Origin: Escherichia coli
Lineage (GTDB): Bacteria > Pseudomonadota > Gammaproteobacteria > Enterobacterales > Enterobacteriaceae
Reading direction: 5' to 3' (one strand)
Assembly: GCF_029227855.1 (NCBI RefSeq)
Contig: NZ_CP074356.1
Length of the DNA stretch: 64,000 bases
Of the stretch, positions 32,339-48,543 are shown piece after piece (the stretch's first letter is position 1; every line of letters starts with the position of its first letter). Under the pieces are notes generated by a model. That model made no database searches. It had not been told where the DNA came from and saw nothing but the letters and a program-made list of their open reading frames with translations. The translations under genes and the position numbers were made by a program.

Positions 32339-33078
32339 GCAGGTTGCGCGTTTTCCGGCAGACAGGATGGTTTATCGCGGGCCTGATGACGGGCTTACCC
32401 GCCACTGCCGCGCCCGCAGAAACATCGTCAATGGCCGGTGTGGCGGTCGCCGTCGCCACCACGACCCCGCCGGATGCGACAGCCACGTCACAGGCCATGC
32501 AGTCCTGTCGGCGGGAGTCCGCGGCGCTGGAGCGGCTTGACTGCTATGACCGCCTGCTGGCACCGCTGTCCCCGTCAGGGTTTGACGGGGCGCTGGTCAA
32601 AGCCGGTTTTGTGGGCGAGGCCTGGACCCGCGCCACAGAGCAGGAAAAACGCCGCGAGGGCAACACCACAGAACTGCTGGTGACGCAGGTGCCGGGGGAG
32701 CGCCCGACGGTGGTGATAACCACCCCGGCTATCGGCCATGTTCCGCCGCGCCCGGTGCTGATGTTCAGTTGCGTGGACAATATCACCCGGATGCAGGTGG
32801 CGCTGATGCACCCTCTGGATGTCCATGATATCGCCGTCACTCTGAATGCCGACAGCCGGGCATTGCGTAGCCACTGGTTTGTGCGCGAGAACGGCACCCT
32901 GCTGGAGTCCAGCCGGGGGCTGTCCGGGATTGATGAAATTAAGCAACTGTTCGGCGCAAAAACGCTGACAGTGGATACCGGCGCAGATAACGCCGCAGGA
33001 AAGCTGACCTTTAACATTGACGGGCTGGCAAGGGCGATTGCCCCCCTGCGCGTTGCCTGCCACTGGGCGGGAGAATAA
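32335..33078 (+). CDS. T6SS-associated periplasmic protein, VasI-like
   Basis: 247 aa with N-terminal signal-like segment; sits where vasI sits in the V. cholerae gene order; family call from memory. Confidence 0.6.
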   Translation: MSRLRVFRQTGWFIAGLMTGLPATAAPAETSSMAGVAVAVATTTPPDATATSQAMQSCRRESAALERLDCYDRLLAPLSPSGFDGALVKAGFVGEAWTRATEQEKRREGNTTELLVTQVPGERPTVVITTPAIGHVPPRPVLMFSCVDNITRMQVALMHPLDVHDIAVTLNADSRALRSHWFVRENGTLLESSRGLSGIDEIKQLFGAKTLTVDTGADNAAGKLTFNIDGLARAIAPLRVACHWAGE

Positions 33079-33082
33079 AAAT

Positions 33083-34495
33083 ATGGCAATGGACTTACGC
33101 GATCCGAATGTCTGGATAACGCACCTGCTGGAAAACCTGCCGGAAGAAAAACTGGCATCGGCGCTGAAAGATGACAACCCGGACTGGGAGTATATCGACG
33201 GCGAAATCGTCAAACTGGGATCTCTGGCCCACAGTCAACTGGATATCCCGGAACTCCAGCGCCGGGGGCTGGTCATTCTGGCTTCGGAGAGTAAGGACTT
33301 TCGTCTGCTGGCGCATCTGCTGAGAACCCTGCAACACGCCGGTGATCCTCATCTCGCATTGCGCCTGCTGGCGCTGTATGTGGAGCATTACTGGTCGGTG
33401 GCTGCGCCGCAGAATATGGCACATAAAAAACGCTTTGCCAGCCAGGTCATTAAACGCTTCGAAACAGGTATTGAAGGCTTTTCACAGAACGCCGCCACAG
33501 CGCAGCGCGACGCGCTGTCAGGGGAACTGGCGAAACTGGCGCAGTGCTGGCAGTCACATAACGCCCCGGAACTGGCACTGGCTACCGATGATCTTTTTGC
33601 CCTGTACCAGCGTGCGTTTAATCGTGCGGCACCGGCTCCTGCCCCCACTCCAGCGGCCTCCGATAGTTCACGACAGACCACCGCCACGTCTGAAAGCGGC
33701 GTGACGCAACCCAGTGCTCCGGCTCCCCAAATCGCCATCGACAGTCACGACGACAAAGCCTGGCGCGACACGCTGTTAAAAGTGGCGGCTATTTTATGTG
33801 AACGCCAGCCGGACTCGCCGCAGGGCTATCGCCTGCGCCGCCATGCCCTGTGGCAATCCATCACCAGTACACCCCAGGCGGAAAGCGATGGACGTACCCC
33901 ATTGGCTGCGGTCTCTGCCGATATGGTGGCGGATTACCAGTCCCGGCTTGCCAGCGCGGATATGGCGCTGTGGCAGCAGGTTGAGAAAAGCGTATTGCTG
34001 GCTCCTTACTGGCTGGACGGTCACTGTCTTTCTGCACAGACGGCACTGCGTCTGGGTTACAAACAGGTGGCAGACACCATCCGCGATGAGGTCATCCGCT
34101 TCCTTGAGCGTCTGCCCCAGCTTACCGGGCTGCTGTTTAATGACCGCACACCGTTTCTTAGTGAGCAGACGAAACAATGGCTGGCAGCTTCGCCCGACGG
34201 CAAAGTTGCACCGGTTGCGCAAATCGGTGAGGAATCGCAGGCAGCCAGAGCCTGTTTTGCTGGGCAGGGTCTGGAGGCGGCGCTGCGATATCTGGACATG
34301 CTACCCGAAGGCGATCCCCGCGATCAGTTTCACCGCCAGTACCTTGCCGCACAGTTGACGGAGGAGGCGGGGCTGATACAGCTTGCGCAGCAACAGTACC
34401 GGATGTTGTTGATGATAGGGAGTCAGATGATGGTGTCTGACTGGGAGCCATCATTACTTACGCAGCTTGAACAAAAATTCACGGCAGAACAATAA
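33083..34495 (+). CDS. tssA: T6SS protein TssA (ImpA N-terminal domain)
   Basis: 470 aa from ATG 33083 (RBS GGGAGAA); position between vasI-like and tssM. Confidence 0.85.
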   Translation: MAMDLRDPNVWITHLLENLPEEKLASALKDDNPDWEYIDGEIVKLGSLAHSQLDIPELQRRGLVILASESKDFRLLAHLLRTLQHAGDPHLALRLLALYVEHYWSVAAPQNMAHKKRFASQVIKRFETGIEGFSQNAATAQRDALSGELAKLAQCWQSHNAPELALATDDLFALYQRAFNRAAPAPAPTPAASDSSRQTTATSESGVTQPSAPAPQIAIDSHDDKAWRDTLLKVAAILCERQPDSPQGYRLRRHALWQSITSTPQAESDGRTPLAAVSADMVADYQSRLASADMALWQQVEKSVLLAPYWLDGHCLSAQTALRLGYKQVADTIRDEVIRFLERLPQLTGLLFNDRTPFLSEQTKQWLAASPDGKVAPVAQIGEESQAARACFAGQGLEAALRYLDMLPEGDPRDQFHRQYLAAQLTEEAGLIQLAQQQYRMLLMIGSQMMVSDWEPSLLTQLEQKFTAEQ

Positions 34496-34513
34496 AAGAG
34501 AACAGGAGTTTTT

Positions 34514-37500
34514 GTGTTCAGATTACCAACACCCCGACTACTCAGCGGACTCAAATCAGCCCTACGCCCGGCGATGCCCCGGTTTAAAGTCTCCGCTTTC
34601 TGGCTGCTGATACTGGCGTGGATTTTTCTGCTGGTATGGATCTGGTGGAAAGGCCCGACGTGGACGCTGTATGAAGAACAGTGGCTCAAACCACTGGCGA
34701 ACCGCTGGCTGGCAACGGCGGCATGGGGGATTATCGCCCTAGTGTGGCTTACCGTCCGGGTGATGAAGCGCCTGCAACAGCTTGAAAAAATGCAAAAGCA
34801 GCAGCGCGAGGAGGCCATTGATCCGCTCAGTGTGGAGCTGAACGCCCAGCAGCGTTACCTTGACCGCTGGCTGCTGCGCCTGCAACGCCATCTCGACAAC
34901 CGCCGTTTCCTGTGGCAGTTGCCGTGGTATATGGTCATCGGCCCGGCGGGCAGTGGCAAAACGACACTGCTGCGCGAGGGTTTTCCGTCCGACATTATTT
35001 ATGCCCCGGAGGGCGCACGCGGCGCAGAACAACGCCTGTACCTCACGCCCCATGTCGGTAAACAGGCGGTGATCTTTGATATCGACGGCACACTCTGCGC
35101 TCCCGCTGATGCGGATATCCTGCATCGCCGTCTGTGGGAACATGCCCTCGGCTGGCTGAAAGAAAAGCGCGCGCGCCAGTCGCTGAACGGGATTATTCTG
35201 ACACTCGATTTACCCGATCTGCTTACCGCAGACAAACGCCGCCGCGAACATCTGTTACAGACGCTGCGCAGCCGCTTGCAGGATATACGCCAGCATCTTC
35301 ACTGCCAGTTACCGGTTTACGTGGTACTCACCCGGCTTGATTTATTGCAGGGTTTTGCCGCCCTGTTCCAGTCACTGAACAGACAGGATCGCGATGCAAT
35401 TCTAGGGGTCACGTTCACCCGCCGCGCCCATGAAAATGATGACTGGCGAACAGAGTTGAATGCTTTCTGGCAGACATGGGTGGATCGAATGAACCTAGCG
35501 TTGCCGGATCTGATGGTCGCTCAGACTCACACCCGCGCGTCTTTATTTAGTTTTTCCCGCCAGATGCAGGGAAGCCGTGAACCACTGGTGTCACTGCTTG
35601 AGGGTCTGCTTGACGGCGAAAATATGAACGTGATGCTGCGTGGCGTCTATCTCACCTCTTCGCTTCAGCGCGGACAGATGGATGATATTTTCACCCAGTC
35701 TGCCGCCCGCCAATACCGGCTGGGCAATAACCCACTGGCGTCCTGGCCTCTGGTGGACACCGCACCCTATTTCACCCGTAGCATGTTCCCGCAGGCGTTA
35801 CTCGCAGAGCCTAATCTGGCAACGGAGAGCCGCGCCTGGCTGATGCGTTCCCGTCGCCGCCTGACGGTTTTCTCTGCCACTGGCGGCGTGGCGGCACTGC
35901 TGCTCATCACCGGCTGGCATCACTATTACAATGGTAACTATCAGTCCGGCATCACCGTGCTTAAGCAGGCCAAAGCCTTTATGGATGTGCCGCCTCCGCA
36001 GGGGGAAGATGACTATGGCAACCTGCAACTGCCGCTGCTGAACCCGGTACGCGATGCCACTCTGGCCTACGGTGACTGGGGCGACCGCAGCCGCCTTGCG
36101 GAGATGGGATTATATCAGGGGCGACGCATCGGGCCTTATGTGGAACGGACCTACCTGCAACTGCTGGAGCAACGCTATCTTCCGTCGCTGTTTAACGGGC
36201 TGGTCAAAGAGATGAACGCCGCGCCACCGGAGAGTGAGGAAAAACTCGCCGTGCTGCGCGTGATGCGAATGCTGGAGGATAAGAGCGGACGTAACAATGA
36301 GGTGGTGAAGCAGTATATGGCAAAACGCTGGAGCGAAAAGTTCCACGGCCAGCGCGATATCCAGGCGCAACAGATGTCCCATCTTGACTACGCGCTGGCT
36401 CACACAGACTGGCATGCAGAGCGTCAGGCGGGCGACGGTGACGCTATCAGCCGCTGGACGCCGTATGACAAGCCCGTTGTGTCAGCACAGAAAGAACTAA
36501 GCAAACTACCTGTCTACCAGCGAGTTTACCAGAGCCTGAAAACGCGGGCGCTGGGCGTTCTTCCTGCCGACCTCAATCTGCGTGACCAGGTAGGGCCAAC
36601 CTTTGACCAGGTGTTTACATCTGCCGATGACAATAAACTGGTTGTTCCACAGTTTCTTACCCGTTACGGCCTGCAAAGCTATTTTGTAAAACAGCGCGAT
36701 GAACTGGTTGAACTGACGGCGATGGATTCCTGGGTACTCAACCTCACCCGCAGCGTGAAATACAGTGACGCCGACCGGGCGGAAATCCAGCGCCAGTTGA
36801 CCGAGCAGTATATCAGCGACTACACCGCCACCTGGCGGGCCGGGATGGACAATCTGAATATCCGCAATTTTGAGTCCATCGGACAACTGACCGGGGCGCT
36901 GGAGCAGGTTATCAGCGGTGACCAGCCTTTGCAGCGGGCGCTGACCGTGCTGCGTGACAACACACAACCAGGCGCCTTTTCTGAAAAGCTATCTGCTAAA
37001 GAACGGGATGAGGCCCTGGCTGAACCAGACTACCAGTTACTCACCCGCCTTGGGCATGAGTTCGCCCCGGAAAACAGTACCCTGACAGTCCAGAAAGATA
37101 AAGAAAGCACGATGCAGGCCGTGTACCTGCAGCTCACCGAGTTACACCGCTACCTGCTGGCGATCCAGAACGCGCCTGTACCTGGGAAATCGGCACTGAA
37201 AGCCGTGCAGTTACGGCTTGATCAGAACAGCAGCGATCCCATATTCGCCACCCGCCAGATGGCAAAAACACTGCCTGCTCCGCTCAACCGCTGGGCAGGC
37301 AGGCTGGCTGACCAGGCCTGGCATGTGGTGATGGTGGAAGCCGTTCACTATATGGAAGTGGACTGGCGCGACAGCGTGGTGAAACCGTTTAACGAGCAAC
37401 TGGCAAATAACTATCCGTTTAATCCACATTCTGCACAGGATGCCTCACTGGATGCCTTCGAACGATTCTTTAAACCAGATGGCATACTGGATACCTTCTA

Positions 37501-38038
37501 CCAGCAGAACCTAAAGCTGTTTATCGACAATGACCTGAGTCTGGAGGATGGCGATAACAACGTCATTATTCGCGAAGATATTATTGCGCAACTGGAAACC
37601 GCGCAGAAAATCCGTGACATATTCTTCAGCAAACAGAACGGTCTGGGAACATCCTTTGCCGTGGAAACGGTATCGCTTTCCGGCAACAAACGCCGCAGCG
37701 TACTGAACCTTGACGGTCAGTTAGTCGATTACAGCCAGGGCCGTAACTATACCGCCCATCTGGTCTGGCCTAACAATATGCGCGAAGGCAACGAAAGCAA
37801 ACTGACGCTGGTTGGTGCCCGCGGCGGCGCACCGCGCAGTATCAGCTTCAGCGGGCCGTGGGCTCCGTTCCGCCTGTTCGGGGCCGGACAGCTGACCGGA
37901 GTACAGGATGGCAACTTTACCGTGCGCTTTAGTGTGGACGGTGGCGCAATGACCTACCGCGTGCATACCGACACGGAAGATAACCCGTTCAGCGGTGGGT
38001 TATTCAGCCAGTTTGGCCTGTCAGACACACTGTACTGA
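34514..38038 (+). CDS. tssM: T6SS membrane complex protein TssM (IcmF family)
   Basis: 1174 aa; N-terminal TM helices, Walker A GPAGSGKT, large periplasmic C-terminal domain. Confidence 0.95.
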   Translation: MFRLPTPRLLSGLKSALRPAMPRFKVSAFWLLILAWIFLLVWIWWKGPTWTLYEEQWLKPLANRWLATAAWGIIALVWLTVRVMKRLQQLEKMQKQQREEAIDPLSVELNAQQRYLDRWLLRLQRHLDNRRFLWQLPWYMVIGPAGSGKTTLLREGFPSDIIYAPEGARGAEQRLYLTPHVGKQAVIFDIDGTLCAPADADILHRRLWEHALGWLKEKRARQSLNGIILTLDLPDLLTADKRRREHLLQTLRSRLQDIRQHLHCQLPVYVVLTRLDLLQGFAALFQSLNRQDRDAILGVTFTRRAHENDDWRTELNAFWQTWVDRMNLALPDLMVAQTHTRASLFSFSRQMQGSREPLVSLLEGLLDGENMNVMLRGVYLTSSLQRGQMDDIFTQSAARQYRLGNNPLASWPLVDTAPYFTRSMFPQALLAEPNLATESRAWLMRSRRRLTVFSATGGVAALLLITGWHHYYNGNYQSGITVLKQAKAFMDVPPPQGEDDYGNLQLPLLNPVRDATLAYGDWGDRSRLAEMGLYQGRRIGPYVERTYLQLLEQRYLPSLFNGLVKEMNAAPPESEEKLAVLRVMRMLEDKSGRNNEVVKQYMAKRWSEKFHGQRDIQAQQMSHLDYALAHTDWHAERQAGDGDAISRWTPYDKPVVSAQKELSKLPVYQRVYQSLKTRALGVLPADLNLRDQVGPTFDQVFTSADDNKLVVPQFLTRYGLQSYFVKQRDELVELTAMDSWVLNLTRSVKYSDADRAEIQRQLTEQYISDYTATWRAGMDNLNIRNFESIGQLTGALEQVISGDQPLQRALTVLRDNTQPGAFSEKLSAKERDEALAEPDYQLLTRLGHEFAPENSTLTVQKDKESTMQAVYLQLTELHRYLLAIQNAPVPGKSALKAVQLRLDQNSSDPIFATRQMAKTLPAPLNRWAGRLADQAWHVVMVEAVHYMEVDWRDSVVKPFNEQLANNYPFNPHSAQDASLDAFERFFKPDGILDTFYQQNLKLFIDNDLSLEDGDNNVIIREDIIAQLETAQKIRDIFFSKQNGLGTSFAVETVSLSGNKRRSVLNLDGQLVDYSQGRNYTAHLVWPNNMREGNESKLTLVGARGGAPRSISFSGPWAPFRLFGAGQLTGVQDGNFTVRFSVDGGAMTYRVHTDTEDNPFSGGLFSQFGLSDTLY

Positions 38039-38048
38039 GGAGGCAGGG

Positions 38049-39401
38049 ATGAATAGTAACGGACTGACACAAACTATCGTTACCGGCAGTGACCCGCGCG
38101 GGCTGCCGGAATTCAGCGCCATCCGCGAGGAAATAAACAAAGCCAGCCATCCGTCACAGCCTGAGCTGAACTGGAAACTGGTGGAGTCGCTGGCGCTGGC
38201 GATTTTTAAAGCCAACGGTGTGGATTTACACACCGCCACCTACTATACGCTTGCCCGGACACGGACACAGGGACTGGCGGGATTCTGCGAAGGTGCGGAA
38301 CTGCTGGCGGCAATGGTAAGCCACGACTGGGATAAATTCTGGCCGCAGGGCGGTCCGGCGCGTACTGAAATGCTGGACTGGTTTAACTCCCGAACCGGCA
38401 ATATTCTGCGTCAGCAAATCCCCTTTGCGGAACCCGATCTGCCACTGATCTACCGCACAGAGCGGGCATTGCAGCTTATCTGCGACAAGCTTCAGCAGGT
38501 GGAGCTGAAGCGCGTTCCGCGCGTGGAGAATCTGCTCTATTTTATGCAGAACACGCGTAAGCGGCTTGAACCCCAGCCGAAGAGTAACGTTGAAAACGCC
38601 GTACAGACCACGGTTAGAACACTGATTTATGCCCCGGAAACAACGGCTTCCTCCACGCCAGAAGCGGTAGTGCCTCCCCTGCCCGACCTGCCTGAGATGA
38701 AAGTAGAAGTGCGCAGTCTGTCAGAGAATCCCCCACAGGCCAGTGTGATGAAGCAAGGCAGTACGGTAAGAGGGTTTATCACGGGGATCGCCTGTTCAGT
38801 GGCTGTCGCCTCAGCATTGTGGTGGTGGCAGGTCTATCCGGTGCAACAGCAACTGTTACAGGTTAACGACACCGCGCAGGGCGCAGCAACGGTGTGGATG
38901 GCCTCACCTGAACTAGAAAACTATGAGCGCAGGCTGCAACAGCTTCTTGGCGTCTCCCCGGTACAACCGCTGGAAACCGGGATGCAGATGATGCGTGTTG
39001 CCGACAGTCGCTGGCCGGAAAGCCTGCAGCAGCAGCAGGCCTCGACACATTGGAATGAAGCACTCAAAACCCGCGCACAGAGTAGCCCGCAGTTGCGTGG
39101 CTGGTTGCAGACCCGTCAGGACTTACATGCTTTTGCAGATCTCGTGATGCGGCGCGAGAAAGAGGGACTAACCCTTTCCTATATCAAAAATGTCATCTGG
39201 CAGGCGGAGCGGGGACTGGGGCAGGAAACACCCGTTGAGTCTCTGTTGACGCAGTACCAGGATACCCGTGCGCAGAAGCAGAATATAGATGCGCTGGAAA
39301 AACAAATTAATGAGCGACTCGAAGGCGTGTTAATCCGCTGGCTGCTGCTGAAGAATAACGTCATGCCAGAGGCGGCAACCGGGACCACGGCCGAAAAATA
39401 A
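38049..39401 (+). CDS. TssA-like ImpA-N-domain membrane protein (TagA/VasL family)
   Basis: 450 aa from ATG 38049 (RBS GAGG); ImpA-like N-terminus and a mid-protein TM helix (ITGIACSVAVASALWWW). Confidence 0.75.
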   Translation: MNSNGLTQTIVTGSDPRGLPEFSAIREEINKASHPSQPELNWKLVESLALAIFKANGVDLHTATYYTLARTRTQGLAGFCEGAELLAAMVSHDWDKFWPQGGPARTEMLDWFNSRTGNILRQQIPFAEPDLPLIYRTERALQLICDKLQQVELKRVPRVENLLYFMQNTRKRLEPQPKSNVENAVQTTVRTLIYAPETTASSTPEAVVPPLPDLPEMKVEVRSLSENPPQASVMKQGSTVRGFITGIACSVAVASALWWWQVYPVQQQLLQVNDTAQGAATVWMASPELENYERRLQQLLGVSPVQPLETGMQMMRVADSRWPESLQQQQASTHWNEALKTRAQSSPQLRGWLQTRQDLHAFADLVMRREKEGLTLSYIKNVIWQAERGLGQETPVESLLTQYQDTRAQKQNIDALEKQINERLEGVLIRWLLLKNNVMPEAATGTTAEK

Positions 39402-39424
39402 TTATTTAATTAAAGGAGATTATC

Positions 39425-39907
39425 ATGGCAAATATGAGTTATTTATCTTTGAGTGGAGAGACACAAGGGCTGATTTCAGCAGGTTGCTCAACGCTTGATT
39501 CTGTCGGAAACAAAGCACAGCCAGAACATAAAGATCAGATCATGGTTTATGCGTTAATGCATTCCATCTCAAGAAGTCAAAATGTCAATCATCATGAATT
39601 AATTATCACCAAACCGGTTGATAAATCCTCACCATTGCTGGCAAAAGCACTTAGTGACAATGAAAAAATGGTAACATGTGAATTTATACTCTACCGAACC
39701 AGTAAAGCGGGTATTTACCAGCCTTATTATAAAATAAACCTGTCAAAAGCCCGAATATCAAGTATTGATTTTGTCACACCGCATGCTGTCCTGGAAAAAG
39801 AACTGGAGCCACAGGAGAGAATTGCCTTTATTTATGAAGATATTTCCTGGGAGCATACGTTAGCCGGTACGAATGCAATGAGTAAATGGCAGGATCGTGT
39901 ACAGTAA
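39425..39907 (+). CDS. Hcp family protein, second divergent copy
   Basis: 160 aa MANMSYLSLSGETQGLISAG...; Hcp-like fold signature; AAGGAG RBS. Confidence 0.85.
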   Translation: MANMSYLSLSGETQGLISAGCSTLDSVGNKAQPEHKDQIMVYALMHSISRSQNVNHHELIITKPVDKSSPLLAKALSDNEKMVTCEFILYRTSKAGIYQPYYKINLSKARISSIDFVTPHAVLEKELEPQERIAFIYEDISWEHTLAGTNAMSKWQDRVQ

Positions 39908-39950
39908 TTTACTGTAATAACATAATAAATTACTATTGCGGAGAGATATA

Positions 39951-40865
39951 ATGGCTGGTTTAAGGAATAATAACAACACACAGAATGCACAGTGGGCTGA
40001 TTATGTGGGTGACATTCTTCGGGGGGCTCAACCGATAAACCAGCTAGTACCTCAGCACCCTTATCTTAACGACGTCCCACTCATTGATGAATTAAGGCGT
40101 CAGAACACTCATCATGTTATTCTCTTGACACTTGATGTTGCAAAAAAAATACTCAACTCAATAACATCATTTGATTACATTCATTTTATCACTACACATC
40201 CTTCAGGTATAAAAGATACACTCGCTTGGTTAGTTAACGCGGGTAAATTAATGACTGAGTTTGATGGAAATGGGAAAATTATATTTAACTTTAATACCTT
40301 AAAGTATACAAAAGCAAGTTACTTTGAAATACTTGGAGAGAAATATATAAAAATTACAACATCCAGCCCCTGGCTTTTAGAAAAGCTCGGTAAATATATT
40401 TTCTCTTCACGAGCGCCTCAAGTTCTGGAACTCGCTATTGGCTGGCGAGGAGCTTTATCTGAATCAATAAAAGGAGTTAAGTTCTGTATCTGGTTTTCAG
40501 TAGCCTGGAGAACCATAGAATTTATTATGAGTTCAGAGCGAGATCTGGTTAATTTTCTTGGTGATTTTTCAATGGATGTGGCCAAAGCAGTGATTGCAGG
40601 CGGTGTTGCAACTGCTATTGGAAGCCTGGCTTCTTTTGCCTGTCTTAGTTTTGGCCTTCCAGTAATTCTTGTAGGAGGAGCAATTTTACTTACAGGGATA
40701 GTGTGTACAGTTGTTTTAAATGAAATCGATGCTCAATACCATTTATCAGAAAAATTAAAAGATGCAATTAGAGATGGACTAAAACGGCAACAGGAACTTG
40801 ATAAATGGAAAAGGGAAAACATGACTCCATTTATGTATGTTCTTAACACTCCTCCCGTGATATGA
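39951..40865 (+). CDS. hypothetical protein with C-terminal glycine-zipper transmembrane region (candidate T6SS cargo)
   Basis: 304 aa from ATG 39951 (RBS GGAGAG); AT-rich; C-terminal AGGVATAIGSLASF...LPVILVGGAILLTGIV hydrophobic segments. Confidence 0.6.
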   Translation: MAGLRNNNNTQNAQWADYVGDILRGAQPINQLVPQHPYLNDVPLIDELRRQNTHHVILLTLDVAKKILNSITSFDYIHFITTHPSGIKDTLAWLVNAGKLMTEFDGNGKIIFNFNTLKYTKASYFEILGEKYIKITTSSPWLLEKLGKYIFSSRAPQVLELAIGWRGALSESIKGVKFCIWFSVAWRTIEFIMSSERDLVNFLGDFSMDVAKAVIAGGVATAIGSLASFACLSFGLPVILVGGAILLTGIVCTVVLNEIDAQYHLSEKLKDAIRDGLKRQQELDKWKRENMTPFMYVLNTPPVI

Positions 40866-40874
40866 GGATTAACT

Positions 40875-41129
40875 ATGCGTTTACATGTTAAATTGAAAGA
40901 GTTTTTTTCGATGTTTTTTATAGCCATATTATTTTTCCCTGCATTCAATGCTTCTTTATTTTTTACCGGAATTAAACCTCTATATTCAATAATAAAAGGC
41001 TCCACGGAAATATTTTATGATTGGAGAATGTTGATTCTATGCTTCGGTTTCATATCGTTTTCCTTGTTAAATATTCATGTAATTTTACTAACAATAATAA
41101 AATCATTCTTAATAAAAAAACAAAGGTAA
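40875..41129 (+). CDS. small hydrophobic protein, possibly the 5' part of a frameshifted membrane-protein gene
   Basis: 84-aa ORF with two predicted TM helices; ends just after an A7 run (41113..41119); ORF 41021..41341 continues in another frame. Confidence 0.4.
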   Translation: MRLHVKLKEFFSMFFIAILFFPAFNASLFFTGIKPLYSIIKGSTEIFYDWRMLILCFGFISFSLLNIHVILLTIIKSFLIKKQR

Positions 41130-41489
41130 TCAATTTCGCCACAGACATAACAATACAGCTAACTCTTATATTTTTACTAATAGCTATCGTAATAGCACCT
41201 TTAATAGCTCCTTTTGTCACAGGATATGTCAATGCTAATTATCACCCCTGCGGTAATAACACGGGGATTTTCCCAGGAGCAATCTATATTAAAAATGGCA
41301 TAAAATGTAATAATGAACATATTTCTCGCAAGGAAGATTAAGCAGTTAAATAATTAAATATTCTAAAACAAACAGTTTTTAACGCCGGATTCCATGTCCT
41401 TTCTTGCACTGTCTTTGTCAGGAACAATTTCTTATGCAAAGAATTTTGTATTATTGCCGCCAGAAATTCCTGGCGGCAGATATAATTTA

Positions 41490-42275
41490 TTATTGATAGC
41501 GGTTAACCAAATCTTTTACCATCGCTTTATAGGTCTTTTGCTTAAGTTGTATGATTTGCTGCTCTGTCATATCAGTCGTACTGGCTTCATTCTTGCCGGG
41601 AAATGGTGGAAGCACTTTATATTCATAATTCACCGGCGACCAGGCAGCCCACTCACCTGTAGCTACATCCACCAGCGTGAATCGCACCAGATAGCGCAGT
41701 GAGATTGTGTTAGTCAGTTTTTCATTTTTATAATCGGACCATACTGTTGATTTCAGTGCAGTGTCATATTTTCCTGTCTGCAACGTATCCTGGTAAACAA
41801 TAATCGCTTTCTGATGGCCTTTTGCCGCCACAAAACGTAATGCCTGCATCCAGTTCATATTTTCAGCACTGGCAACATCCTCGTTCTCATTTTTATCTTT
41901 GTTTTTGTTACAAGTCAGAGGCTTTTGTCTGTCCGGGATACCAGAGAATGTGGAAACAGTATAATATTTTCGCATCTCCTCCTGCATAATGGTTTCCGGT
42001 GCGCGGTTGCCGGATTGAACAAGTATTACAGGTGAATTAAGGGGAACGCGGAACTCATCTCCATCAAGCGCAGCTTGAATATCCTCCTCGGATACGGCTA
42101 GTGTGGTTTCATTACCAAATAAGTCTTTGTCTGTTAGTTGCTGCGGAGCGTTTTTATTAAAATTACTTTGTGTGGTTTGAGCTTTTTTCTTCTTTTCATC
42201 AATAAGAGATTCAGAGACACATCCTGCAAGCAGCGACAATAATACATATATACAACAAACCTTTTTTGAATTCAA
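41490..42275 (-). CDS. yafT: lipoprotein YafT
   Basis: 261 aa with lipobox LLAGC; AT-rich; matches the yafT position next to aspV. Confidence 0.85.
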
Positions 42276-42542
42276 AATCGGACACTCCCTCGTCTGTCAT
42301 AATCATGGTAATGTTTAGCTAACGATTTTTAATTATATACTCCACTTGAATCAGAACAAACAAAAATAATATTAAATATTAATTCATTAAATCAATAGAA
42401 TAATAAAAATTATAACATGGAAATATATTTAAATTGAATGATTCGCTGGTATTATTAAATATTAATGAATGGTCAATCATATATAATTACCACATTTACA
42501 GCATAACAAAATAATTGAACGAAGAAATTGTGGGGTTTAAAT

Positions 42543-42576
42543 ACAAAAAAAACCGCAAAATTAAAAATTTTGCGGT
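42543..42576 (-). terminator. rho-independent terminator downstream of aspV
   Basis: AACCGCAAAA / TTTTGCGGTT stem followed by a T8 run on the minus strand. Confidence 0.6.
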
Positions 42577-42604
42577 TCTCTGAACTCATTTTCATGAGTG
42601 AATT

Positions 42605-42681
42605 TGGCGGAACGGACGGGACTCGAACCCGCGACCCCCTGCGTGACAGGCAGGTATTCTAACCGACTGAACTACCGCTCC
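42605..42681 (-). tRNA. aspV: tRNA-Asp (GTC)
   Basis: Reverse complement reads GGAGCGGTAGTTCAGTCGGTTAGAATACCTGCCTGTCACGCAGG...CCGCCA. Confidence 0.97.
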
Positions 42682-42813
42682 GCGTTGTGTTCCGTTGGGA
42701 ACGAGGCGAATATTACGGATTGCCTCACCCTTCGTCAACGGTTTTTCTCATCTTTTGAATCGTTTGCTGCAAAAATCGCCCAAGTCGCTATTTTTAGCGC
42801 CTTTTACAGGTAT

Positions 42814-43545
42814 TTATGCCCGCCAGAGGCAGCTTCCGCCCTTTTTCTGCACCAGATCGAGACGGGCTTCATGTGCCGCAAGCTCTTCATCTGTCGCAAA
42901 AACAACGCGTAACTTACTTGCCTGACGCACAATGCGCTGAATTGTTGTTTCACCTTGTTGCTGTTGTGTCTCTCCTTCCATCGCAAAAGCCATCGACGTT
43001 TGACCACCAGTCATCGCCAGATAAACTTCCGCAAGGATCTGGGCATCGAGTAATGCCCCGTGCAACGTTCGTTTACTGTTATCTATTTCGTAGCGGGCAC
43101 ATAACGCATCGAGGCTGTTGCGCTTACCGGGAAACATTTTCCTCGCCACCGCAAGGCTATCGGTGACCTTACAGAAGGTATTGGTCTTCGGAATATCGCG
43201 CTTAAGCAACGAAAACTCGTAGTCCATAAAGCCGATATCGAACGCTGCGTTATGGATCACCAACTCCGCGCCGCGAATATAGTCCATGAACTCATCGGCT
43301 ACTTCGGCAAACGTGGGCTTATCGAGCAAAAATTCATCGGCAATACCATGTACGCCAAAGGCTTCCGGATCCACCAGCCGATCGGGTTTGAGATAAACAT
43401 GGAAGTTATTGCCCGTCAGGCGACGGTTCACCACTTCAACGGCACCAATCTCAATGATCTTGTGGCCTTCATAGTGCGCGCCAATCTGGTTCATACCGGT
43501 GGTTTCGGTATCGAGAACGATCTGGCGTGTAATTGCAGTGCTCAT
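42814..43545 (-). CDS. dnaQ: DNA polymerase III epsilon subunit (proofreading exonuclease)
   Basis: 243 aa [19 protein letters not shown]... Confidence 0.95.
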
Positions 43546-43609
43546 AGCGGTCATTTATGTCAGACTTATCGTTTTACAGTTCGATTCAATTACAGGAAGT
43601 CTACCAGAG

Positions 43610-44077
43610 ATGCTTAAACAGGTAGAAATTTTCACCGATGGTTCGTGTCTGGGTAATCCAGGACCTGGGGGTTACGGCGCTATTTTACGCTATCGCGGAC
43701 GCGAGAAAACCTTTAGCGCAGGCTACACCCGCACCACCAACAACCGTATGGAGTTGATGGCCGCTATTGTCGCGCTGGAGGCGTTAAAAGAACATTGCGA
43801 AGTCATTTTGAGTACCGACAGCCAGTATGTCCGCCAGGGTATCACCCAGTGGATCCATAACTGGAAAAAACGTGGCTGGAAAACCGCAGACAAAAAACCA
43901 GTAAAAAATGTCGATCTCTGGCAACGTCTTGATGCTGCGCTGGGGCAGCATCAAATCAAATGGGAATGGGTTAAAGGCCATGCCGGTCATCCAGAAAACG
44001 AACGTTGCGATGAACTGGCTCGTGCCGCAGCGATGAATCCCACACTGGAAGATACGGGCTATCAAGTCGAAGTTTAA
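43610..44077 (+). CDS. rnhA: ribonuclease HI
   Basis: 155 aa [23 protein letters not shown]...; divergent from dnaQ. Confidence 0.95.
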
Positions 44078-44796
44078 GCCTGTGGTTTACGACATTGCCG
44101 GGTGGCTCCAACCGCCTGGCGAATTCGTGGCTTGTTTTTACTCTGTTTCATCGGATTTAGCGTTAAAGGAATAGTCCGTTTCCGGGCGACAATAAGTTGT
44201 AAGCAACCAAGCGCAGGAATATGCGCATTCAATAGTTTTCCACCGTGTTTGTTCCACGGGAGAACGTGGAAACGGCTGGCGTGTAGCACTTCAAAATTCA
44301 ACAAAGAGAGCCAGTCCAGCTGCCGCATCAGAGTAAACATCCGGCTATTATAGGGCGAGGTTTTGCGCAATACCGGCACAAGTTTTCGTAATCCCATTAA
44401 ACTGATGGGATTGAAGCCACTAATCACCAGCCAGCCATCATCAATCAATACCCGATCGGCTTCACGCAATAAACGATGCGGATCGGTGCACCACGGCAAT
44501 GTATGTGCCAGTAGACAAACATCAACGGATTTATCGGCAAAAGGAAGATGAAGTGGGTCCGCCTGCACCTGGACGGGCAGTCCTTGCGCAGAAACATTCA
44601 CTTGATGAGAAACCGCGCACGCTTCGCAATTGATTTCTGCGCTTAAATTGCCAATCTTAAGCAGATGAAAACCATACATTTTAGTGAACCACGGGTTGAG
44701 CTGGCGCTCCAGCGCCTTGCGATAAAGCTCTCCCCAGGGCAAATCGCCCCAGCAATCAGGAGCCACGACAGTTTGAGGGACTCTTGCCGGTTTCAT
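44074..44796 (-). CDS. yafS: SAM-dependent methyltransferase YafS
   Basis: Translation from [10 protein letters not shown]... Confidence 0.85.
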
Positions 44797-44826
44797 CACA
44801 ACCTTCCGTTTCACACTGAGAGGTAA

Positions 44827-45585
<759 letters not shown>

Positions 45586-45656
45586 TAAAACTTTCTTGTC
45601 ATCGGCTCCGTTCGCCGTTATGATCGGTCGTCTTTTAAGCAACTATTGACACACAC

Positions 45657-47015
45657 ATGAAGGCAAAAGCGATATTACTCGCCTCTGTCCTGCTCGTGGG
45701 TTGCCAGAGTACCGGCAACGTTCAACAGCACGCACAGAGCCTTTCTGCAGCTGGTCAAGGGGAAGCAGCAAAGTTTACAAGTCAGGCACGATGGATGGAC
45801 GATGGGACGTCTATCGCGCCAGATGGTGACTTGTGGGCTTTCATTGGCGACGAGCTAAAGATGGGAATTCCGGAAAATGACCGGATTCGCGAACAGAAAC
45901 AGAAATATTTACGCAATAAGAGCTATCTCCACGATGTAACTTTACGGGCAGAGCCGTATATGTACTGGATAGCCGGGCAAGTTAAAAAACGTAACATGCC
46001 TATGGAACTGGTACTACTACCCATAGTGGAGAGCGCTTTTGATCCTCACGCAACGTCTGGCGCCAATGCAGCAGGCATCTGGCAGATCATTCCGAGCACG
46101 GGGCGCAATTATGGTTTGAAACAGACCCGCAATTATGACGCGCGTCGCGATGTTGTTGCTTCAACAACTGCCGCGCTGAACATGATGCAGCGTCTGAACA
46201 AGATGTTTGACGGCGACTGGCTTCTGACCGTAGCGGCTTATAACAGCGGCGAAGGTCGAGTCATGAAGGCAATTAAAACGAACAAAGCGCGTGGGAAATC
46301 CACGGACTTCTGGTCGTTACCGTTGCCGCAGGAAACGAAGCAGTACGTGCCTAAAATGCTGGCATTGAGTGATATTCTCAAAAACAGCAAGCGTTATGGC
46401 GTACGTCTGCCAACGACCGATGAAAGCCGTGCTCTGGCGCGTGTGCACCTGAGCAGCCCAGTTGAAATGGCGAAGGTTGCAGATATGGCGGGGATTTCCG
46501 TCAGCAAGCTTAAGACATTCAACGCTGGCGTGAAAGGCTCCACGCTGGGCGCAAGTGGTCCGCAGTACGTGATGGTGCCAAAGAAGCATGCAGATCAACT
46601 GCGTGAATCTCTGGCTTCGGGCGAAATTGCTGCTGTACAGTCGACGCTGGTTGCCGACAATACGCCGCTTAACAGCCGTGTTTACACCGTACGCTCTGGC
46701 GACACGCTTTCAAGTATCGCTTCACGTCTCGGCGTTAGCACCAAAGATTTGCAGCAGTGGAACAAACTGCGCGGATCTAAGCTGAAGCCAGGCCAAAGCT
46801 TGACGATTGGCGCAGGTAGTAGCGCACAGCGGTTGGCAAACAACAGCGATAGCATTACATATCGTGTGCGCAAAGGCGATTCGCTTTCAAGCATTGCTAA
46901 ACGCCACGGCGTGAACATCAAAGATGTGATGCGCTGGAACAGCGATACTGCGAATCTGCAACCAGGCGATAAGCTGACGTTGTTTGTGAAAAACAACAAC
47001 ATGCCAGATTCCTGA
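45657..47015 (+). CDS. mltD: membrane-bound lytic murein transglycosylase D
   Basis: 452 aa lipoprotein (LVGC) with transglycosylase core and C-terminal LysM repeats. Confidence 0.95.
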   Translation: MKAKAILLASVLLVGCQSTGNVQQHAQSLSAAGQGEAAKFTSQARWMDDGTSIAPDGDLWAFIGDELKMGIPENDRIREQKQKYLRNKSYLHDVTLRAEPYMYWIAGQVKKRNMPMELVLLPIVESAFDPHATSGANAAGIWQIIPSTGRNYGLKQTRNYDARRDVVASTTAALNMMQRLNKMFDGDWLLTVAAYNSGEGRVMKAIKTNKARGKSTDFWSLPLPQETKQYVPKMLALSDILKNSKRYGVRLPTTDESRALARVHLSSPVEMAKVADMAGISVSKLKTFNAGVKGSTLGASGPQYVMVPKKHADQLRESLASGEIAAVQSTLVADNTPLNSRVYTVRSGDTLSSIASRLGVSTKDLQQWNKLRGSKLKPGQSLTIGAGSSAQRLANNSDSITYRVRKGDSLSSIAKRHGVNIKDVMRWNSDTANLQPGDKLTLFVKNNNMPDS

Positions 47016-47033
47016 CAAATCAGATAATAAATA

Positions 47034-47058
47034 TCCTCCGGCATAGCCGGAGGTTTTT
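47034..47058 (+). terminator. rho-independent terminator after mltD
   Basis: CCTCCGGC-ATAG-CCGGAGG followed by TTTTT. Confidence 0.6.
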
Positions 47059-47059
47059 C

Positions 47060-47770
47060 AAATGCGCCTATAAGGCTCTCTTACCAGCCGCGCCCTAACA
47101 GGCGCACACGATCTGACATTTGCATCCAACTTCGTTACTTACGGCCCGTAAACGGGCTGCCCGGATAGGGAATCGATAACTGCTCTCCCATTTTATCCTC
47201 TTCAAGCTGGTGCTTTATGTAATCCTGTATCTTCGCCGTGTTCTTACCCACTGTATCGACGTAGTACCCTCTGCACCAGAACTCCCTGTTCCTGTATTTG
47301 AATTTCAAATCACCAAACTGCTCGTAAAGCATCAGACTGCTTTTCCCTTTCAGATATCCCATAAACCCGGATACGCTCATTTTGGGCGGGATCTCCACAA
47401 GCATATGGATATGATCTGCACAGCATTCAGCTTCCAGAATCCGTACGCTTTTCCACTCACACAGCTTTCTCAAAATACTGCCTATTGCTCTACGCTTCTC
47501 TCTGTAGAACACCTGTCTTCGGTATTTTGGCGCAAAAACTATGTGATATTTACAGTTCCATCGGGTGTGCGCTAAGCTCTTTTCGTTCCCCATTGGGACC
47601 CCCTTTTGATTTCTTGTTTGACACTTGCAGTTGCCAGACCGCAAAGTGTTTTAACAAATCAAAAGGGGTTTTAATAACTGGCTCAAAGCTGAAAGCTTTC
47701 CGGAACCCCCAGCCTAGCTGGGGGTTTTCTGTGCACAATGAAAGGCACCGATTCCCCCGGTGCCTTTTTT
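47060..47770 (-). mobile_element. IS200-like insertion sequence (IS200/IS605 family); boundaries approximate
   Basis: Single Y1 (HUH) transposase gene plus two hairpins upstream of it (47707..47727 and 47750..47770). Confidence 0.5.
47135..47593 (-). CDS. tnpA: IS200 transposase TnpA (Y1 HUH family)
   Basis: 152 aa MGNEKSLAHTRWNCKYHIVFAPKYRR...; HxH motif (ADHIHML). Confidence 0.9.
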   Translation of the reverse strand: MGNEKSLAHTRWNCKYHIVFAPKYRRQVFYREKRRAIGSILRKLCEWKSVRILEAECCADHIHMLVEIPPKMSVSGFMGYLKGKSSLMLYEQFGDLKFKYRNREFWCRGYYVDTVGKNTAKIQDYIKHQLEEDKMGEQLSIPYPGSPFTGRK

Positions 47771-47772
47771 AT

Positions 47773-48543
47773 TTATGCTGCTTTATGTGCTTCTACAATG
47801 ATGATATCACTGGTGAAAGAGCCATCATTCTGCAAGGCAAAATACGTTTTCACCTCTGTCGATGCGCTCTGTTGGTAAATGCGAATAGCGTCTACTAACG
47901 CTTCTGGCGTACGCATTCTCGCGACCCATGAAGAAAATTCCAGCGGTAACTTATCTGTAATTAAATTATCAACTATCAGATTGGCTTCATTGATTAACGT
48001 CAACCACTCACCGCTGGCGTAGTTTCGTACGTGAGAGGTATCGCGTAATGCTTCTACCGTCTGTAACCAGACGTCGCGCACTGGGTGCCCCGGAGACATT
48101 ACGTCCATCACAATCAGCCTACCGCCAGGTTTCAATATCCTATTCACTTCTCGCAGTGCTGCACCAACATCATGCCAGTGATGGGCAGAATAACGGCTGA
48201 TAACAATATCAAATGCGTTATCGGCAAATGGCAGACTTTCGACATAACCCTGGCGGGTGGTGATATTTTTCAGTTGCCGGGCTTCGGCAGCTTGTGCCAC
48301 GACATCCAGCATGTGGGCAGATAAGTCATACGCCACCACCGCGCTCACGTTCTGCGCAGCGACAAAGCTGGCATGCCCTGCTCCGCAGCCCATATCAAGT
48401 ACACTTGCATCAGGATAATCAGCCAGACGCACCGCCAGGCGCTGTAAATCCCGTCCGGATGCATGTACGGTACTAGTCAGATATTCGCTAGCTTGAGAGC
48501 TAAACTGCTTTTCTACGTGGTCATGGTGGGATTGTGATGTCAT
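47773..48543 (-). CDS. yafE: SAM-dependent methyltransferase YafE
   Basis: 256 aa with DMGCGAGH motif. Confidence 0.9.
   Translation of the reverse strand: MTSQSHHDHVEKQFSSQASEYLTSTVHASGRDLQRLAVRLADYPDASVLDMGCGAGHASFVAAQNVSAVVAYDLSAHMLDVVAQAAEARQLKNITTRQGYVESLPFADNAFDIVISRYSAHHWHDVGAALREVNRILKPGGRLIVMDVMSPGHPVRDVWLQTVEALRDTSHVRNYASGEWLTLINEANLIVDNLITDKLPLEFSSWVARMRTPEALVDAIRIYQQSASTEVKTYFALQNDGSFTSDIIIVEAHKAA

What the first reader, a model, noticed from the sequence alone, without database searches (positions are those of the whole stretch)
47060..47770. IS200 copy inserted between the mltD terminator and the yafE stop codon
A single Y1-transposase gene with the two characteristic hairpins (47707..47727, 47750..47770) sits in a short convergent intergenic spacer. 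IS200 moves rarely, so its position is a useful strain marker, and the hairpins could affect yafE 3' end formation.
Basis: partly seen in the sequence, partly recalled or inferred. Interest (0 to 1): 0.3.

Follow-up and report, generated by a model that had tools for sequence, protein, structure and literature searches.

The report
Ordinary IS200C copy in a terminator

Summary
An IS200 copy is present, but at window 47026..47736 (711 bp, tnpA on the minus strand), not 47060..47770. Deleting those 711 bp gives a sequence found at 100% identity over 800 nt in at least 25 complete E. coli genomes. That fixes the length and shows there is no target duplication; the junction position is ambiguous by 3 nt.

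TnpA (47135..47593) is an intact Y1/HUH transposase. The 5'UTR matches Rfam STnc490 over its full length. RefSeq annotates the identical sequence as IS200C.

Only 22 of 5,426 complete genomes carry an IS200 at this site. They show three junction/flank types and two IS alleles, so the site looks like a recurrent hot spot and is a weaker strain marker than supposed.

In 122 IS200-group copies from many bacteria, the left end abuts a terminator-like hairpin plus T-tract in 87% of cases, against 0.6% of random positions. As I recall (paper not held, abstract unverified here), this was reported for IS1541.

Verdict: already known and ordinary; low interest.

The parts
47026..47736 (-). Complete IS200C element, 711 bp. 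The boundaries can slide together by up to +3 nt because AAT occurs at both junctions.
   Evidence: Removing these 711 bp gives a sequence matched at 100% over 800 nt in one piece in at least 25 genomes and read directly in strain 7/2. The 711 bp are 100% identical to copies at other loci, e.g. CFT073.
47026..47034 (-). Right-end tail, ATATTTATT on the element strand, from the hairpin foot to the right terminus.
   Evidence: Conserved in all E. coli and Yersinia copies; the sequence beyond it varies.
47035..47053 (.). IS200 right-end hairpin (8-bp stem, 3-nt loop). Read on the + strand it is followed by TTTTT, so it is now the first terminator-like signal after mltD.
   Evidence: (-15.5 kcal/mol). 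Absent from empty sites and present in copies elsewhere.
47063..47106 (.). Imperfect inverted repeat (13-nt arms, 85% complementary) between the right-end hairpin and the tnpA stop. Role unknown.
   Evidence: I3.
47135..47593 (-). tnpA: Y1/HUH transposase, 152 aa, with H61-I62-H63, Y125 and Q129.
   Evidence: Pfam Y1_Tnp 130.7 bits. PDB relatives 2ec2, 2f4f, 2a6m and 2xm3. RefSeq CDS WP_000526135.1 'IS200C family transposase' on identical DNA. Y125F is catalytically dead in PMC4513863.
47598..47668 (-). tnpA Shine-Dalgarno (AAGGGGGT, 47598..47605) buried in the 5'UTR stem-loop (arms 47600-47615 and 47653-47668).
   Evidence: I1. Full-length Rfam STnc490 match at 47603..47726, 144.6 bits. Function taken from PMC4513863.
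47585..47674 (+). [quoted passage not shown] Inferred by homology only.
   Evidence: Description in PMC4513863 mapped onto the window. No expression data.
47704..47726 (.). IS200 left-end hairpin (10-bp perfect stem, 3-nt loop). In Salmonella IS200 this is the bidirectional terminator at nt 12-34 that blocks impinging transcription.
   Evidence: The 22-nt core is identical in 120+ copies from many genera.
47727..47736 (-). Left terminus, GTGCACAGAA on the element strand, 10 nt ahead of the left-end hairpin.
47737..47772 (.). Native bidirectional mltD/yafE terminator: hairpin 47741..47767, with a T6 tail on the + strand and a TTTCATT tail on the - strand. The - strand tail is the insertion target. 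It is not part of IS200.
   Evidence: Present unchanged in empty sites. Folds at -17.4 and -17.6 kcal/mol..
47013..47025 (+). mltD stop codon (47013..47015) plus the 10 nt that separate it from the IS right end.
47773..48543 (-). yafE (class I SAM-dependent methyltransferase), intact at 256 aa. Its stop codon is 5 nt from the native hairpin.

Best explanation
Window 47026..47736 is one intact copy of IS200C, a 711-bp insertion sequence of the IS200/IS605 family. It carries only tnpA, on the minus strand.

Shown here:
- It interrupts the 46-bp mltD/yafE spacer, 10 nt after the mltD stop codon.
- On the yafE-sense strand it lies directly 3' of the T-rich tail (TTTCATT) of the terminator hairpin shared by the two genes.
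- There is no target duplication.
- Its left end faces that hairpin, so tnpA reads in the same direction as yafE and as replication.

Inferred from the family (IS608, ISDra2):
- The Y1/HUH transposase cut the element out of its donor as a single-stranded circle.
- It then pasted the circle into single-stranded DNA on the lagging-strand template, 3' of a short T-rich target.

Expected behaviour, by homology with Salmonella IS200:
- The left-end hairpin blocks read-through from yafE.
- The 5'UTR stem-loop hides the ribosome-binding site.
- The antisense RNA art200 represses tnpA. Together these keep the element almost silent.

Predicted consequences for the host genes (not measured):
- mltD transcripts should now terminate at the IS right-end hairpin plus U5 rather than at the native terminator, which is 711 bp further on.
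- yafE keeps its own hairpin and the first 7 nt of its tail.
For: - Empty-site reconstruction matches at 100% over 800 nt in at least 25 genomes and was read directly in strain 7/2.
- K-12-like empty sites are aligned.
- Only 22 of 5,426 genomes are filled.
- TnpA matches Pfam PF01797 at E=3.8e-38 and solved IS200/IS608/ISDra2 transposases. Its HUH motif and Y125 correspond to the catalytic Tyr of PMC4513863.
- Rfam STnc490 matches full length at 144.6 bits against a threshold of 56.
- The hairpins fold at -15.5 to -22 kcal/mol and are picked up by the scans.
- RefSeq annotates the identical DNA as IS200C.
- Identical 711-bp copies occur at other loci.
- Copies at five other E. coli sites end at the same nucleotides.
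- 106 of 122 independent left-end flanks are hairpin plus T-tail, against 10 of 1,715 random positions. The stem-to-end distance is 6-9 nt, and the logo is TTT(T/A)TT|GT.
- Orientation: + strand GC skew is -0.026. The locus lies at about 0.235 Mb in reverse orientation in conventionally numbered genomes.
Against: - No experiment here shows transposition, transcript ends, or art200 expression.
- The exact cleavage positions are ambiguous by 3 nt.
- Salmonella IS200 is quoted as 707 bp against 711 bp here, and I could not align to the ISfinder reference.
- GC skew over 64 kb is noisy.
- For IS608, dsDNA next to the target did not stimulate integration. The reason for the hairpin preference is therefore not explained by the model system.
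Confidence: 0.93

Rival explanations
1. One reading: the element spans 47060..47770, both hairpins at 47707-47727 and 47750-47770 belong to IS200, and 47035-47055 is the resident mltD terminator.
For: The span has the right length (711 bp). Read on the + strand, 47035..47053 does look like a terminator just after mltD.
Against: Genomes without the IS keep the 47741..47767 hairpin and lack the 47035..47053 hairpin. IS200C copies at recX/recA, yihI, infA, rnb and leuD/sgrT all carry the CCTCCGGCATAGCCGGAGG hairpin, and each has a different hairpin outside the left end.
Confidence: 0.01
2. The insertion is a single ancient event and a clean lineage marker. The 19 genomes with identical flanks but 29 substitutions inside the IS arose by gene conversion of the resident copy from another IS200 allele in the same genome.
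For: The junctions and 800 bp of flank are identical between the window and the B-type genomes. A-type and B-type elements coexist in the same genomes, so a donor was available. All 29 differences lie in the interior, 47070..47645.
Against: Both alleles are 100% identical over the full length to copies elsewhere, so no conversion tract edges are visible. Two further genomes on different flank backgrounds have different junctions (712-bp insert; A6 run), which argues for repeated hits on this terminator. A 14-kb flank comparison does not place the filled genomes closer to the window than empty ones.
Confidence: 0.4
3. The site is a hot spot. A-type and B-type IS200, and the copies in MS 196-1 and E04, are independent insertions (or precise excision followed by re-insertion) into the same terminator T-tract.
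For: There is strong, general targeting of hairpin plus T-tract. Three junction/flank types occur at this one site. Both alleles are present in multiple identical copies in the lineage. The family excises precisely (family knowledge; PMC5027513).
Against: A and B share exactly the same junction nucleotides in identical flanks, which is also what common descent predicts. IS200 is reported to transpose very rarely (PMC4513863).
Confidence: 0.55
4. The copy is an inactive relic that can no longer move.
For: IS200 is described as essentially dormant.
Against: The ORF is intact with all catalytic residues. Both ends and the 5'UTR structure are intact. The 711 bp are identical to copies at many other loci, and some genomes hold up to 35 places.
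Confidence: 0.1

Closest known systems
IS200C of Escherichia coli (IS200 group, IS200/IS605 family)
   Same: The DNA is 100% identical over 711 bp to copies in CFT073 and many other genomes. TnpA is identical to WP_000526135.1, which RefSeq names 'IS200C family transposase'.
   Different: Nothing detectable. Only the insertion site is particular, being filled in 22 of 5,426 genomes.
IS200 of Salmonella enterica (Lam & Roth 1983; Beuzon & Casadesus 1997; Ellis et al. 2015, PMC4513863)
   Same: [quoted passage not shown]
   Different: Quoted as 707 bp against 711 bp here. No direct alignment was possible, and art200 expression from this copy was not tested.
IS1541 of Yersinia pestis
   Same: Identical 22-nt left-end hairpin core and identical right-end hairpin and tail (GGAGGATATTTATT). 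Same placement against terminator-like hairpins. From my memory of Odaert et al. 1998, J Bacteriol 180:178 (paper not held): terminator-like stem-loops were found at 8 of 14 insertion sites and proposed as hot spots.
   Different: The first 11 nt of the left end differ (GTGCCCAG against GTGCACAG). Copy number is much higher, and head-to-tail tandems occur.
IS608 (Helicobacter pylori) and ISDra2 (Deinococcus radiodurans)
   Same: Homologous Y1/HUH TnpA (E about 1e-19 and 1e-16). Both have subterminal hairpins, no inverted terminal repeats, no target duplication, a left end that abuts a short specific target, and orientation on the lagging-strand template.
   Different: They carry tnpB, whereas IS200 has tnpA only. 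Their targets are TTAC and TTGAT, against a T-tract next to a hairpin here. For IS608, adjacent dsDNA did not stimulate integration.

Membership tests
IS200/IS605 family | Y1 (HUH) transposase with an HUH motif and a catalytic tyrosine | tested here: met
   PF01797 at 130.7 bits against a cut-off of 23. H61-I-H63 and Y125 read from the translation. Homology to 2ec2, 2a6m and 2xm3.
IS200/IS605 family | No terminal inverted repeats; a different subterminal hairpin at each end | tested here: met
   The left-end hairpin (47704..47726) and right-end hairpin (47035..47053) have unrelated sequences. The termini, GTGCAC... and ...TTTATT, are not inverted repeats.
IS200/IS605 family | Insertion without target-site duplication; a precise empty site exists | tested here: met
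   Exact removal of 711 bp reproduces sequences found at 100% in at least 25 genomes. Only a 3-nt coincidental identity (AAT) occurs at the junctions.
IS200/IS605 family | Left end abuts a short conserved target sequence | tested here: met
   The logo upstream of the left end is TTT(T/A)TT in 122 independent flanks. This copy has TTTCATT.
IS200/IS605 family | Active (top) strand on the lagging-strand template | tested here: inconclusive
   tnpA is co-directional with replication, judged from the position of the locus (about 0.235 Mb, reverse orientation) in conventionally numbered genomes and a weak GC skew of -0.026. This is one copy only, so it is consistent but not a test.
IS200 group (tnpA only) | A single gene, no tnpB or iscB; length about 0.7 kb | tested here: met
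   711 bp. The only family-supported ORF is tnpA; the other ORFs are overlapping or antisense and have no support.
IS200 group (tnpA only) | Left-end terminator hairpin plus a 5'UTR stem-loop that hides the Shine-Dalgarno sequence (STnc490/art200 locus) | tested here: met
   Rfam RF01405 matches model positions 1-124 of 124, at 144.6 bits against 56. The fold gives z=-4.0. Layout as in PMC4513863.
IS200C (ISfinder isoform) | Near-identity to the ISfinder IS200C reference sequence | not testable with these tools
   ISfinder is not available. Indirect support only: the RefSeq/PGAP product name on identical DNA.
IS200 group (tnpA only) | Ability to transpose | not testable with these tools
   Only indirect support: identical copies at many loci.

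The most novel reading that the evidence does not exclude
IS200-group transposases may select intrinsic terminators by structure.
- A GC-rich hairpin followed by 6-9 nt of T-rich single strand mimics the element's own right end, which is a hairpin followed by ATATTTATT.
- On this view, any terminator exposed on the lagging-strand template is a potential hot spot. The right end of a resident copy is one too, which would explain the head-to-tail tandems in Y. pestis.
- It would also account for the recurrent hits at the mltD/yafE terminator and for each copy landing behind a host terminator.
- The association itself is probably already known: from memory, Odaert 1998 for IS1541, and the 2025 preprint for the family. 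The register and the right-end-mimicry mechanism may not be.
Probability: 0.3. Interest if true: 0.4.

Novelty: already known. Interest (0 to 1): 0.12.

Why it matters
For this window it matters little. It is a standard IS200C copy that RefSeq already annotates, and it interrupts no gene.

Three practical points follow:
- IS200 ends cannot be called from hairpins alone. The element habitually lands against a host terminator, so a third hairpin that does not belong to it always sits beside it.
- The position of this copy is a weak strain marker, because the same terminator appears to have been hit more than once.
- mltD, rather than yafE, is the gene whose terminator was swapped for one carried by the IS.

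Tried and rejected
- My first boundary estimate, from K-12-like empty sites, was 710 bp at 47032..47741. I rejected it when the lineage's own empty allele (AATGAAAGG instead of AATAAAAAGG) turned out to match a 711-bp deletion exactly.
- A 14-kb flank search, meant to decide whether A-filled and B-filled genomes are sister lineages, resolved nothing. Empty and filled genomes were all at 99.9%.
- Searching each IS allele separately showed both as full-length identical copies elsewhere. No conversion tract could therefore be seen.
- I tried to read Odaert 1998 and Beuzon & Casadesus 1997. Neither is held, so what I say about them is from memory.
- The Rfam hit to Ysr202 (29.8 bits against a threshold of 315) covers only the right-end hairpin, and I dismissed it as chance.
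- I considered a pairing rule between the target and the conserved AGAAA just 5' of the left-end hairpin, by analogy with IS608 guide sequences. The counts are compatible (92% pyrimidine opposite the G). However, T-tract composition alone would give the same result, so I make no claim.
- The IS608 experiments on neighbouring dsDNA do not support the idea that a duplex next to the target stimulates integration.

Full report
**What is in the sequence**

- The mltD ORF ends at 47015 on the + strand. yafE, a class I SAM-dependent methyltransferase, ends at 47773 on the - strand.
- Between them lies a 152-aa ORF at 47135..47593 on the - strand. It matches Pfam Y1_Tnp (PF01797) at E=3.8e-38.
- It also matches the solved IS200-type, IS608 and ISDra2 transposases.
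- Its HUH motif (H61-I-H63) and Y125 are intact. Y125F is the catalytically dead mutant used in PMC4513863.
- The stretch upstream of the ORF, 47603..47726 on the - strand, matches Rfam STnc490 over all 124 model positions. The score is 144.6 bits against a threshold of 56.
- The window holds no other copy of the left-end hairpin.

**Where the element really starts and ends**

- I first compared the site with genomes that lack the insertion. K-12-like empty sites read ...CAGATAATAAAAAGGCACCGATTCCCCCGGTGCCTTTTTTATTTATG....
- Copies of IS200C at five other loci are conserved from AATAAATATCCTCCGG... to ...GGGGGTTTTCTGTGCAC(AA). The loci are recX/recA, yihI, infA, rnb and leuD/sgrT.
- I then built the predicted empty site by deleting window 47026..47736. 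It matched at least 25 complete genomes at 100% over 800 nt in a single piece.
- I read that junction directly in strain 7/2 as ctgacaaatcagat|aatgaaaggcacc.
- The insertion is therefore exactly 711 bp, with no target duplication. The junction can slide by 3 nt because AAT occurs on both sides.
- The spacer without the IS is 46 bp.

**Anatomy on the element strand (the window's minus strand)**

- Left terminus GTGCACAGAA: 47736..47727.
- Left-end hairpin, a 10-bp perfect stem: 47726..47704.
- 5'UTR stem-loop that buries the AAGGGGGT Shine-Dalgarno sequence: arms at 47668-47653 and 47615-47600.
- tnpA: 47593..47135.
- An imperfect inverted repeat: 47106..47063.
- Right-end hairpin: 47053..47035.
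- Right-end tail ATATTTATT: 47034..47026.
- All of these are supported.
- This is the published IS200 layout, with a terminator hairpin at nt 12-34, a stem-loop at nt 69-138, and art200 antisense to the 5'UTR (PMC4513863).
- RefSeq annotates the identical DNA in strain JNEC-KY178 as an 'IS200C family transposase'.

**Distribution**

- Only 22 of 5,426 complete E. coli genomes have an IS200 at this site.
- One genome, JNEC-KY178, is identical to the window.
- Nineteen genomes have flanks and junctions identical to the window but 29-30 substitutions inside the IS. All of these lie between 47070 and 47672. The TnpA is a different protein, WP_001550737.
- One genome, MS 196-1, has K-12-like flanks, a 712-bp insert and a junction one nucleotide different.
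- One genome, E04, has a third flank haplotype, an A6 run at the junction, and an IS3-family element cutting yafE.
- Both IS alleles occur as 100% identical full-length copies at other loci, and both occur together in the same genomes.
- I therefore cannot separate three possibilities: gene conversion, precise excision followed by re-insertion, and independent insertion.
- A 14-kb flank comparison did not help.
- Full-length IS200 is present in 2,063 of 5,426 genomes, with up to 35 places per genome.

**Why this site**

- Every copy I looked at has its left end against a GC-rich hairpin followed by Ts.
- The hits came from Yersinia pestis, Vibrio, Brenneria, Edwardsiella, Pluralibacter, Dickeya and Budvicia, and from several metagenome-assembled genomes.
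- Together with the E. coli copies there were 122 unique left-end flanks. Of these, 106 (87%) have a strict hairpin plus T-rich tail ending exactly at the element, against 10 of 1,715 (0.6%) random positions in the same loci.
- The distance from the last G/C-closed pair to the element is mostly 6-9 nt.
- None of 53 right-end flanks has such a structure pointing inwards.
- The six bases before the element read TTT(T/A)TT.
- The element's own right end has the same form, a hairpin plus ATATTTATT. In Y. pestis, tandem copies have a left end directly following another copy's right end.
- From memory, terminator-like stem-loops at IS1541 insertion sites were reported by Odaert et al. 1998. That paper is not held.
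- A 2025/2026 preprint reports that terminator-like sequences just upstream of ISs are most over-represented in the IS200/IS605 family (10.1101/2025.07.22.666184).
- The association is therefore known.

**Mechanism**

- The excision and integration chemistry is inferred from the family, not tested here. The Y1/HUH transposase excises the top strand as a single-stranded circle and integrates it into ssDNA 3' of a short target, preferentially on the lagging-strand template (PMC5027513).
- The orientation here is consistent with that. tnpA is on the window's minus strand, which is the conventional plus strand at about 0.235 Mb in the right replichore. The window's + strand GC skew is -0.026.
- For IS608, dsDNA on the 5' side of the target is tolerated but does not stimulate integration. 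The hairpin preference of IS200 is therefore not explained by that model. Right-end mimicry is my hypothesis.

**Consequences for the neighbouring genes (predicted, not measured)**

- yafE keeps its hairpin and the first seven tail nucleotides, UUUCAUU. Any read-through would then meet the IS left-end hairpin, which is a documented bidirectional terminator.
- mltD loses direct contact with its native terminator, which is now 711 bp downstream. It meets the IS right-end hairpin followed by U5 instead (-15.5 kcal/mol).

**Verdict**

The feature is an ordinary, already annotated IS200C copy, and interest is low.

Noticed in passing
window 47070..47672, compared with L005 and L006: Nineteen genomes have flanks and junctions identical to the window but a different IS200 allele at this site, with 29-30 substitutions and TnpA WP_001550737. 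Both alleles coexist elsewhere in the same genomes. The cause could be gene conversion, excision followed by re-insertion, or independent insertion; this is unresolved.
   Followed up: partly
L077 about 300-370; L078 about 2660-3400; L080; L124 (Yersinia pestis NCTC5923): Head-to-tail tandem IS1541 copies. The left end of one copy follows directly on the right-end hairpin and ATATTTATT tail of another, with either two or three Ts at the joint. This suggests that the right end itself serves as a target.
   Followed up: partly
L012-L039, L045, L049-L052, L065-L073: The 22-nt IS200 left-end hairpin core is 100% identical in multi-copy elements in metagenome-assembled genomes assigned to distant groups: Bacillota, Peptococcaceae, Saccharibacteria, Mailhella/Desulfovibrio, Elusimicrobiaceae and Oxalobacter. 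Each group has its own first 11 nt, and many copies lie about 90-110 nt from contig ends. This may reflect real wide spread or binning contamination; I did not check.
   Followed up: no
L133 1005..1040 (E. coli CFT073, leuD/sgrT): An identical IS200C copy appears to sit in the T-tract of the terminator hairpin next to sgrT (GCCAGCAGTGATTATCTGCTGGCTTTTTT|GTGCAC). I take this to be the sgrS sRNA terminator, from memory and its position next to sgrT; sgrS itself is not annotated in the record. This is another terminator hit, next to a regulatory RNA.
   Followed up: no
L007 2133..3333 (E. coli E04): An IS3-family element lies immediately beyond the shared terminator and replaces the 3' part of yafE. 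At this locus it is next to the IS200 copy.
   Followed up: no
L001 and L004 (K-12-like flanks), compared with window 47773..48543: yafE is annotated as a pseudogene (N-terminus missing) in K-12-like genomes, but it is an intact 256-aa ORF in the window's lineage.
   Followed up: no
window 47603..47726: The Rfam STnc490 model matches the tnpA-sense strand and includes the left-end terminator hairpin. The literature, however, describes STnc490/art200 as the 90-nt antisense RNA (PMC4513863). The Rfam hit therefore marks the locus, not the strand of art200.
   Followed up: partly
window 33000..47000: Type VI secretion genes (tssM, tssA, a VasL-domain gene) lie upstream of gloB and mltD, according to RefSeq annotation of the identical region. 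About half of the genomes (2,781 of 5,426) cover at least 80% of this 14-kb stretch.
   Followed up: no
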